The position numbers were made by a program. Positions 27,624 through 28,215 of a stretch of 64,000 nucleotides of DNA are shown here, in pieces (within the stretch, counting starts at the first letter, position 1; each line of letters starts with the position of its first letter). The stretch lies in the NCBI RefSeq assembly GCF_022846255.1, contig NZ_AP025682.1. The stretch is one strand, 5' to 3'. This stretch comes from Escherichia coli (GTDB taxonomy: Bacteria; Pseudomonadota; Gammaproteobacteria; Enterobacterales; Enterobacteriaceae).

Positions 27624-28215
27624 TCACTTCACTGTGGAAAATGAGGAAATATTATTTTTTTTGCGCTTCGTAATTAATGGTTATAAGGTCGGCCAGAAAC
27701 CTTTCTAATGCAAGCGATGACGTTTTTTTATGTGTCTGAATTTGCACTGTGTCACAATTCCAAATGTTTATTAACAACTCACCTAAAACGACGCTGATCC
27801 AGCGTGAATACTGGGTTGTACGGTATTTTCCTTATGTTCATCAGTTTCATTTAAGCAAGGGTTTCTTCTTCATTTCTGATGAAAGTGCCATCTAAAAAGA
27901 TGATCTTAATAAATCTATTAAGAATGAGATGGAGCACACTTGATATTTTACTTGTGAAACTGTTTCACTCCTTTACTTAATTTATAGAGTTACCTTCCGC
28001 TTTTTGAAAATACGCAACGGCCATTTTTTGCACTTAGATACAGATTTTCTGCGCGGTATGGCATTGATTTGCTGCTAATCCTGTGGATTGCACTAGCTTT
28101 AAGTGGTCGAGATCACATTTCCTTGCTCATCCCCGCAACTCCTCCCTGCCTAATCCCCCGCAGGATGAGGAAGGTCAACATCGAGCCTGGCAAACTAGCG
28201 ATAACGTTGTGTTGA

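What the first reader, a model, noticed from the sequence alone, without database searches (positions are those of the whole stretch)
27954..27968. Perfect 15-bp palindrome GTGAAAC-T-GTTTCAC upstream of malT
This is an exact inverted repeat in the malT-malP intergenic region, about 340 bp upstream of the malT start codon. It resembles a CRP-type site (TGTGA...TCACA) but the half-site spacing is one base longer than consensus, so it may be a non-canonical CRP site or a site for a different dimeric regulator. A 1-nt loop makes an RNA hairpin role unlikely.
Basis: partly seen in the sequence, partly recalled or inferred. Interest (0 to 1): 0.3.

Follow-up and report, generated by a model that had tools for sequence, protein, structure and literature searches.

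The report
Conserved distal operator upstream of malT
The palindrome is real but is not a CRP site: its 11-bp core is a conserved protein-binding-type dyad held about 213 bp upstream of the malT CRP site in many enterobacterial genera, most likely an undescribed distal control site for the maltose master regulator.

Summary
The 15-bp palindrome GTGAAAC-T-GTTTCAC is at 27954-27968, 337-351 bp upstream of the malT start codon. On its own it is not beyond chance, and only 34% of E. coli genomes carry the perfect form; K-12 has ATGAAAC. Its 11-bp core GAAAC-T-GTTTC (consensus GWAAY-N-RTTWC) is the best-conserved part of a ~40-bp island in an otherwise scrambled malT-malP spacer. The island is recognisable in 43 species of at least ten genera. 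The outer two bases per arm are unconstrained.

The dyad keeps a fixed distance to malT (213.6 +/- 4.8 bp from the malT CRP-site centre). Its distance to malP elements varies from 100 to 191 bp, so it goes with malT.

The CRP reading fails: wrong spacing, and the TGTGA/TCAC look is specific to E. coli. An RNA hairpin is weak and shows no compensatory change.

The dyad has the 7-1-7/5-1-5 architecture and core of IclR-type operators. The consensus derived from mal orthologs picks out both true E. coli IclR operators. The E. coli site itself matches the IclR consensus poorly (8/14).

Lrp is a genetically documented malT regulator, but it fits worse by sequence and was not seen here by SELEX. The binder is unidentified.

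Verdict: a real, apparently undescribed distal malT cis-element of moderate interest.

The parts
27954..27968 (.).
   Evidence: Read directly. The perfect form is present in 1,846 of 5,426 E. coli genomes, and the K-12 form ATGAAAC... in 3,510.
27956..27966 (.). Constrained core dyad GAAAC-T-GTTTC (5-1-5; cross-genus consensus G-W-A-A-Y-N-R-T-T-W-C)
   Evidence: Mean 1.42 bit per position over 43 species. G(-5) carries 2.33 bit, AA 1.64 each, TTTC 1.3-1.8. G3, A5, A6 and T10 are invariant in 39 distinct orthologous 15-mers.
27944..27953 (.). Upstream conserved block (third half-site-like box; E. coli TATTTTACTT, consensus TATTTCAGGT) at -17..-8 from the dyad centre
   Evidence: Information content is 1.0-1.5 bit at -17..-14 and 0.5-1.0 bit at -13..-8. 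The block is visible in the alignments.
27972..27981 (.). Downstream, more weakly conserved block TTTACTTAAT (consensus TTTACATATT in Citrobacter and Kluyvera)
   Evidence: Alignments. Information content is 0.5-1.15 bit at +8..+21.
27741..27756 (-). Core of the malT CRP site (TGTGACACAGTGCAAA on the malT strand), the landmark to which the dyad keeps a fixed distance
   Evidence: 8/10 CRP core matches at N6. Invariant block in all alignments. Distance to the dyad centre is 212.5 bp here, and 213.6 +/- 4.8 bp in 39 species. Its identity as the mapped CRP site at -70.5 is from memory of the malT literature.
24912..27617 (-). malT coding sequence, the presumed target gene
   Evidence: 901-aa ORF. 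Annotated as malT in identical and related E. coli records. The dyad centre lies 343.8 +/- 5.5 bp from its ATG in 43 species.

Best explanation
The palindrome is the E. coli version of a conserved distal cis-regulatory operator that belongs to the malT promoter.

The functional unit is an imperfect 5-1-5 dyad (GWAAY-N-RTTWC). It has a third half-site-like box about 11-12 bp upstream and a weaker block downstream, together about 40 bp. It is held about 213 bp upstream of the malT CRP site. That is roughly -283 from the malT start point in this strain and -272 in K-12, if CRP is at -70.5 (from memory).

It most likely binds a dimeric or tetrameric helix-turn-helix regulator whose operator type is that of the IclR family: one central base and a GAAA/TTTC core. 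From that distance the regulator would modulate malT transcription. This would happen through a DNA loop or wrapped nucleoprotein complex that reaches the CRP/RNA polymerase/Mlc region, which would explain why the length of the intervening DNA is constrained but its sequence is not.

Shown: the conservation, the dyad anatomy, the linkage to malT rather than malP, and the operator-type resemblance. Inferred: protein binding, the family of the binder, looping, and the regulatory effect. The outer G..C pair that makes the 15-mer perfect is fortuitous.
For: (1) Phylogenetic footprint. In the Escherichia/Citrobacter/Salmonella alignment the central spacer is scrambled except for one island around the dyad. 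A profile of the island finds it at the same place in Kluyvera, Leclercia, Silvania, Pseudocitrobacter, Enterobacter and others. An ungapped stack gives 1.42 bit per position for the core against 0.35 for the flanks.

(2) Within E. coli, a 35-bp stretch around it is fixed in 5,356 of 5,426 genomes apart from one outer-arm polymorphism.

(3) Linkage to malT. The distance to the malT ATG is 343.8 +/- 5.5 bp and to the CRP-site centre 213.6 +/- 4.8 bp. The distance to the malP-side GATCACA block is 137 +/- 26 bp, range 100-191. In Trabulsiella a 1.8-kb insertion leaves the island remnant on the malT side. A dispersed-repeat insertion 45 bp away in Escherichia sp. MOD1 spares it.

(4) Protein-site-like evolution. 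The inner pairs are invariant, +/-4 and +/-1 are often non-complementary, and pairing is 68.9% against 66.2% in shuffles.

(5) Operator type. The architecture is identical to the IclR consensus TGGAAATNATTTCCA (PMC8222616 Table 1). The dyad is the best or co-best IclR-consensus match in its own intergenic region in 29 of 44 species, and orthologs average 9.4/14, up to 12/14. The consensus derived only from mal orthologs, at <=1 mismatch, hits exactly the two genuine E. coli IclR operators at aceB and iclR; chance is about 0.0007 per specified position. Three-box sites with alternating direction are described for this family.

(6) No conserved ORF, RNA family, promoter or terminator explains the island.
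Against: - No binding experiment or public peak could be found for this site.
- The E. coli version matches the IclR consensus only 8/14, which is about the 99th percentile of background. Three positions in the same intergenic region score higher and 15 tie. The true operators score 13/14 and 10/14. The GG/CC at +/-5,6 typical of IclR is not conserved.
- The IclR-family comparative study lists no malT or malP site.
- IclR-family sites usually lie 20-80 bp from the gene start, not about 340 bp.
- A helical-phase test of the distances is not significant (P 0.17-0.34), so looping is only an inference.
- C. sedlakii appears to have lost the island, and no island was detected in Klebsiella, Buttiauxella, Kosakonia and others.
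- Classical deletion work, recalled from memory, treated this spacer as dispensable for malT and malPQ expression in the laboratory.
Confidence: 0.55

Rival explanations
1. It is a nucleation site for Lrp. Lrp is known genetically to regulate malT and typically acts from arrays of degenerate 15-bp AT-rich dyads far upstream of promoters by wrapping DNA.
For: - RegulonDB lists malT among known Lrp targets (PMC2374795 Methods list).
- The Lrp SELEX consensus YAGHAWATTWTDCTR (from memory) is also a 7-1-7 dyad, with G at -5 and C at +5, the two most invariant positions here.
- Orthologs average 10.2/15.
- The site is distal and lies in a 39%-GC spacer.
- The length constraint without sequence constraint would suit DNA wrapping.
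- The Lrp SELEX screen recovered only 60% of RegulonDB targets, so its negative result is weak.
Against: - In E. coli the dyad scores 9/15, with 36 better positions in the same intergenic region.
- It is the best Lrp match in its own region in only 7 of 44 species.
- Positions +/-1 disagree with the consensus.
- The Lrp genomic SELEX target tables contain no malT or malP entry.
- The Lrp ChIP study text does not mention them.
Confidence: 0.17
2. It is a non-canonical CRP site (TGTGA-N7-TCACT), adding a second cAMP-CRP input to malT or malPQ.
For: 9/10 core matches at N7 spacing in this strain. CRP is the known activator of malT.
Against: - The canonical N6 spacing gives only 6/10.
- The match is specific to E. 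coli: the ortholog mean is 5.5 at N7, and only one reaches 8.
- K-12 and 65% of E. coli genomes have TATGA.
- The conserved positions are GAAA/TTTC, not the TGTGA/TCACA cores.
- Two better CRP-type sites exist in the region, each scoring 8/10 at N6.
Confidence: 0.03
3. The conserved island serves something other than regulator binding at malT. It could be a control element of malPQ, a promoter or 5' end of an unannotated short transcript, or an architectural or bent-DNA element. Alternatively the conservation has no regulatory consequence.
For: The binder is unknown. The spacer was reported as dispensable in classical deletion studies (from memory). In the Enterobacter group several further blocks of the spacer are conserved, including two more GAAAC/TTTC dyads with 2- and 3-nt gaps, so a larger structure may be involved. 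A terminator-like hairpin lies on the minus strand at 27805-27791.
Against: - The distance to malP elements is unconstrained, 100-191 bp.
- There is no sigma-70-like promoter at the island, no Rfam match and no conserved ORF.
- Conservation of specific bases in a dyad pattern across at least ten genera, with scrambled flanks, argues against neutrality.
Confidence: 0.2
4. The palindrome forms an RNA or DNA hairpin or cruciform with a structural role.
For: Perfect 7-bp arms in this strain. Some species change both arms in parallel: Silvania GTAAT-T-ATTAC, Kluyvera GAAAT-C-ATTTC.
Against: - Folding gives 6 pairs with a 3-nt loop at -3.8/-4.1 kcal/mol, z -1.5 to -2.3, and 8-16 of 200 shuffles fold as well.
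- Pairing across orthologs is 68.9% against 66.2% in shuffles. The outer pairs are unpaired in 23-27 of 39 species, +/-4 in 16 of 39 and +/-1 in 17 of 39.
- There is no evidence that the site is transcribed.
Confidence: 0.02

Closest known systems
IclR operators of E. coli (aceBAK and iclR promoters; consensus TGGAAATNATTTCCA)
   Same: Odd-length dyad with a single central base and a GAAA(Y)-N-(R)TTT core. The mal-derived consensus finds both true operators at <=1 mismatch. Orthologs in Citrobacter and Enterobacter reach 11-12/14, as good as the aceB operator at 10/14. IclR acts as a tetramer on two boxes at aceB (from memory).
   Different: The E. coli site scores only 8/14, and the GG/CC at +/-5,6 is not conserved. 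The location is about 283 bp upstream of the start point rather than over the promoter. No report of IclR at malT was found.
KdgR box (RWWGAAACGNCGTTTCAKKA) and IclR-family group 2 motif TGRAACA-N1-2-TGTTYCA
   Same: Identical half-sites, GAAAC/GTTTC, preceded by A/T. In Enterobacter, Leclercia and Kluyvera a second dyad CGAAAC-NNN-ATTTCATTT with KdgR-type spacing lies about 31 bp downstream of the island.
   Different: The arms of the conserved dyad are separated by 1 base, not 3-4 (for the consensus; for the site).
Distal Lrp site arrays (e.g. ilvIH, gltBDF upstream regions)
   Same: A 15-bp AT-rich dyad with G/C at +/-5. Action from 150-260 bp upstream and DNA wrapping are typical for Lrp (from memory). 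malT is a listed Lrp target.
   Different: A poor and undistinguished consensus score in E. coli. No SELEX peak. No clear array of phased sites.
The mapped malT CRP site (TGTGACACAGTGCAAA)
   Same: Shares the TGTGA/TCAC look in this strain and lies in the same regulatory region.
   Different: N7 instead of N6 spacing. The CRP-like bases are not conserved between genera, whereas the true site is invariant.

Membership tests
CRP (cAMP receptor protein) site | Two pentamers TGTGA / TCACA separated by 6 bp (8 bp in a minor class) | tested here: not met
   N6: 6/10 in E. coli, ortholog mean 4.8, none >=8. N8: 5/10. Only N7 gives 9/10, and only in E. coli.
CRP (cAMP receptor protein) site | Conservation of the CRP core bases in orthologous regions | tested here: not met
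   The outer TG..CA positions carry 0.34 bit, the flank level. K-12 has TATGA. The true malT CRP site is invariant.
IclR operator | 7-1-7 dyad architecture with a GAAAT-N-ATTTC core | tested here: met
   Architecture and core match. The mal consensus hits both real IclR operators at <=1 mismatch.
IclR operator | Good match to TGGAAATNATTTCCA, including GG/CC, at least in one perfect half-site | tested here: not met
   E. coli scores 8/14, 4/7 per arm. True operators score 13/14 and 10/14, each with a perfect left arm. Some orthologs do meet it: C. MGH106 TGGAAAT..., E. asburiae ...ATTTCCA.
IclR operator | Binding by IclR, relieved by glyoxylate or stabilised by pyruvate | not testable with these tools
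   Needs EMSA, footprinting or ChIP. No report was found.
KdgR box / IclR-family group 2 | GAAAC and GTTTC half-sites separated by 3-4 bases | tested here: not met
   The separation is 1 base in all 39 distinct orthologs. Consensus from PMC8222616.
Lrp binding site | Match to YAGHAWATTWTDCTR that stands out from the AT-rich background | tested here: inconclusive
   E. coli scores 9/15 with 36 better positions in the region. Ortholog mean is 10.2, with 39% at or above the 99th percentile. The dyad is the best match in 7 of 44 species.
Lrp binding site | Lrp occupancy in vitro or in vivo | tested here: inconclusive
   Not in the genomic SELEX tables, but that screen misses 40% of RegulonDB targets. 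RegulonDB lists malT as an Lrp target.
LysR-type (T-N11-A) / MetR (TGAA-N5-TTCA) box | T and A at +/-6 flanking the dyad, conserved | tested here: not met
   Met in E. coli only. The mean is 0.39 of 2 over orthologs, and 7% reach 2.
Fis site | G at -7 and C at +7 of a 15-bp core | tested here: not met
   Present in the B2-type allele only. Positions +/-7 are unconstrained.
Structured RNA / intrinsic terminator hairpin | Stable stem supported by compensatory changes | tested here: not met
   -3.8/-4.1 kcal/mol, z -1.5 to -2.3. No covariation beyond shuffles. No Rfam hit.

The most novel reading that the evidence does not exclude
An unrecognised regulator, most plausibly an IclR-family protein that senses a central-carbon or sugar-acid metabolite, feeds into the maltose regulon. 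It would bind this dyad and act on the malT promoter from about 283 bp upstream through a length-constrained DNA loop. That would add a third transcriptional input to malT beside CRP and Mlc, conserved across Enterobacteriaceae.
Probability: 0.2. Interest if true: 0.55.

Novelty: new member of a known kind. Interest (0 to 1): 0.36.

Why it matters
malT is the master activator of one of the best-studied bacterial regulons, and its promoter is usually drawn with only CRP and Mlc. A dyad kept at a fixed distance upstream in at least ten genera, while the DNA between drifts freely, points to a further input. This could be the missing Lrp site or a new regulator. It also points to action at a distance at a sigma-70 promoter.

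The site gives a precise, testable target: NC_000913.3 3552745-3552759. It may help explain unexplained effects on malT expression such as osmolarity, pH and growth phase, which I recall from the literature. If it turns out to be inert, the result still shows that the "CRP-like" appearance is an accident of the E. coli lineage.

Tried and rejected
- CRP at N6, N7 and N8 spacing: rejected.
- MetR and LysR T-N11-A box: fits E. coli only.
- Fis: the critical G/C positions are unconstrained.
- IclR itself in E. coli: 8/14 against 13/14 and 10/14 for the real operators.
- KdgR: wrong spacing.
- OmpR: the ChIP-exo target list has malEFG but no malT or malP. Resemblance to ompF F1/F2 was seen only in Citrobacter and from memory.
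- Mlc/NagC, LacI-family (Cra, AscG), CpxR, PhoP, DeoR, DnaA box, SlmA/MatP, RpoE, sigma-54 and sigma-S promoters: considered from remembered consensus sequences. Dropped because spacing or conserved bases do not fit, or because the fit is lineage-specific.
- IHF consensus: no match.
- Small ORF (33 aa, 27879-27980 plus strand): specific to E. coli, not conserved.
- Rfam: no match.
- Sigma-70 promoter or terminator at the site: none.
- Helical phasing of the distance to the CRP site: not significant.
- Shared mal-regulon operator: absent from the malE-malK, malS, malZ and malI-malX control regions.
- Literature: no paper prints the sequence in a relevant context, and none discusses this spacer element. 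The Boos & Shuman review, Tchetina & Newman 1995 and the malT footprinting paper are not held. The cap on papers was reached before the second ChIP-exo survey could be checked.

Full report
**Observation**

The window is E. coli; the intergenic region is 100% identical to the type strain ATCC 11775. GTGAAACTGTTTCAC occupies 27954-27968. It lies between malT (minus strand, 24912-27617) and malP (plus strand, 28240-30633), with its centre 344 bp from the malT ATG.

As a bare palindrome it is unremarkable. The window holds 16 perfect palindromes with 7-bp arms and a 0-2 nt gap, against 13.8 expected. The chance of one in this 622-bp, 39%-GC region is 0.06-0.15.

It is also not the common allele. 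A 35-bp probe spanning it finds the G form in 1,846 complete E. coli genomes and the K-12 form (ATGAAAC..., 6-bp arms) in 3,510, together 5,356 of 5,426.

**What is conserved**

I fetched 80 orthologous malP-upstream loci from other enterobacteria and delimited the malT-malP spacer in each. In Escherichia, Citrobacter and Salmonella the promoter-proximal parts on both sides are nearly invariant and the central ~300 bp is scrambled. The exception is one island around the palindrome.

A profile of that island recovers it, at the same place, in Kluyvera, Leclercia, Silvania, Pseudocitrobacter and others. An alignment of the Enterobacter/Leclercia group shows its ortholog GAAATATTATTCTACGTAAGTAAT-C-ATTTC.

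I stacked 43 species without gaps on the dyad centre (about 32 effective sequences). This gives 1.42 bit per position for the inner 11 bp (G-W-A-A-Y-N-R-T-T-W-C) and 1.0-1.5 bit for part of a second block (TATTTCAGGT) at -17..-8. The outer two positions of each arm carry 0.34 bit and the flanks 0.35 bit. So the constrained element is a 5-1-5 dyad inside a ~40-bp island, and the perfect 15-mer is partly fortuitous.

**Which gene it serves**

The distance from the dyad centre to the malT ATG is 343.8 +/- 5.5 bp in 43 species. The distance to the centre of the malT CRP site is 213.6 +/- 4.8 bp in 39 species, although the DNA between cannot be aligned between genera. The distance to the conserved GATCACA block on the malP side ranges from 100 to 191 bp, sd 26.

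E. coli alleles differ by an 11-bp indel at 27815-27825, and Salmonella is about 10-11 bp shorter. A formal helical-phase test is not significant (P 0.17-0.34), so I claim a length constraint and not phasing.

In Trabulsiella, a ~1.8-kb Hcp-type cassette has been inserted between the genes. A degenerate remnant of the island stays next to malT. C. sedlakii, with a similar insertion, seems to have lost the island. In Escherichia sp. MOD1 a dispersed repeat inserted 45 bp away leaves the island intact.

**What it is not**

- **CRP.** At the canonical 6-bp spacing only 6/10 core positions match. The ortholog mean is 4.8 and none reaches 8. The good match at N7 is confined to E. coli. The real malT CRP site and a CRP-like site near malPp each score 8/10.
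- **RNA hairpin.** -3.8/-4.1 kcal/mol, z -1.5 to -2.3.
- **Dyad pair counts across 39 distinct orthologs.** The inner pairs never vary. Positions +/-4 and +/-1 are non-complementary in 16 and 17 species, and the outer pairs in 23-27. Overall pairing is 68.9% against 66.2% in shuffles. This is the pattern of two half-sites each held near a consensus, not of a structure kept by compensation.
- **Other features.** No Rfam family, sigma-70-like promoter, terminator, IHF consensus or conserved ORF accounts for the island.
- **A shared mal operator.** The dyad is absent from the malE-malK, malS, malZ and malI-malX control regions, and the island is unique in the window.

**What it resembles**

A dyad with one central base and a GAAA/TTTC core is the architecture of the E. 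coli IclR consensus TGGAAATNATTTCCA. KdgR-type motifs have the same half-sites but 3-4 bases between them. Three-box sites with alternating direction are described for the family (PMC8222616).

Three tests support the resemblance:
- The dyad is the best or co-best IclR-consensus match in its own intergenic region in 29 of 44 species, against 7 of 44 for the Lrp consensus.
- Orthologs average 9.4/14 and reach 12/14.
- The degenerate consensus built only from mal orthologs, allowed one mismatch, hits exactly the two genuine IclR operators of K-12, GGAAATTGTTTTT at aceB and GGAAATCATTTTC at iclR. The chance is about 0.0007 per specified position.

Against IclR itself: the E. coli site scores only 8/14, against 13/14 and 10/14 for the true operators, and about 16 positions in the same region tie with it. 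The GG/CC bases are not conserved. The position is far from any promoter. No source lists a site here. E. coli has eight IclR-family regulators.

**The Lrp alternative**

RegulonDB lists malT as an Lrp target, and Lrp commonly works from far upstream. But the consensus match is undistinguished, with 36 better positions in the E. coli spacer. The genomic SELEX tables have no malT or malP entry. That screen recovers only 60% of RegulonDB targets, so this is weak negative evidence. OmpR ChIP-exo lists malEFG but not malT or malP.

**Conclusion**

The best account is a conserved distal operator of the malT promoter, of IclR-operator type, whose binder is not identified (confidence 0.55 for the operator claim). 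The Lrp nucleation-site reading gets about 0.17, and other or no function about 0.2.

Protein binding, the looping mechanism and the regulatory effect are inferences. The malT start point (CRP at -70.5) and the classical deletion results are from memory.

It is a new member of a known kind, an uncharacterised transcription-factor site, in a classical regulon. Interest is moderate.

Noticed in passing
window 27815-27825: An 11-bp indel (GTTGTACGGTA) between the malT CRP site and the island distinguishes 622-bp spacers (this strain, B2-like) from 611-bp spacers (K-12, O157). It changes the dyad-to-CRP distance by about one helical turn, 212.5 vs 201.5 bp.
   Followed up: partly
window 28102-28117: AGTGGTCGAGATCACA, a CRP-type site (8/10 core at N6) just upstream of the MalT boxes of the malPQ promoter. 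The GATCACA(Y)TTT block is conserved in all genera examined.
   Followed up: partly
L009 300-2113; L046 and L047 about 418-2192: In Citrobacter sedlakii and Trabulsiella a ~1.8-kb cassette is inserted between malT and malP. It encodes a 159-aa protein that I judged Hcp-like (T6SS tube protein family) by eye from its sequence, without running a family search, plus a ~290-aa and a ~145-aa membrane protein, which could be an effector/immunity pair.
   Followed up: partly
L005 about 2040-2178; L021 spacer: A dispersed repeat is inserted in the spacer of Escherichia sp. MOD1-EC7003, about 45 bp from the dyad. It has ~87% identical copies elsewhere in E. coli genomes, e.g. beside ybhI, and I recognise it as ERIC-like from memory. 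A similar element lies on the other side of the island in C. amalonaticus S646.
   Followed up: partly
L028, L031, L032, L035, L037, L039, L044 (about 350-363 bp upstream of malP) and about 31 bp downstream of the island ortholog: Enterobacter and Leclercia spacers carry two further conserved dyads with the same half-sites but other spacings: CTGAAAC-TG-GTTTCAG, and CGAAAC-YGC-ATTTCATTT with KdgR-like spacing. They also carry conserved blocks GGAACTTT, GTTAATAAAGT and TTAATAG. Trabulsiella has CTGAAAC-AG-GTTACAG next to the CRP site.
   Followed up: partly
window 27791-27805 (minus strand): A terminator-like hairpin ACGCTGGATCAGCGT followed by CGTTTTAGG lies just upstream of the malT CRP site, on the malT-direction strand. 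The stem is kept in E. albertii and E. whittamii, with a variable loop base.
   Followed up: no
window 28273-28288: CAGGAAGCGCTTTCAC inside the 5' end of the malP coding sequence is listed as a computationally predicted GalR motif in PMC5110547.
   Followed up: no
L025, L074, L018: Three records carry a typical enterobacterial malT-malP locus under unexpected labels: 'Bacillota bacterium MAG', 'Chryseobacterium sp. 18061', and an 'Escherichia coli SCPM-O-B-8794' whose MalP is only 86% identical to E. coli. These are probably contamination or mislabelling.
   Followed up: no
window 27879-27980 (plus strand): A 33-aa ORF (MKVPSKKMILINLLRMRWSTLDILLVKLFHSFT) spans the palindrome. It is intact in E. 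coli but already disrupted in E. albertii and absent elsewhere, so it is probably not a gene.
   Followed up: yes
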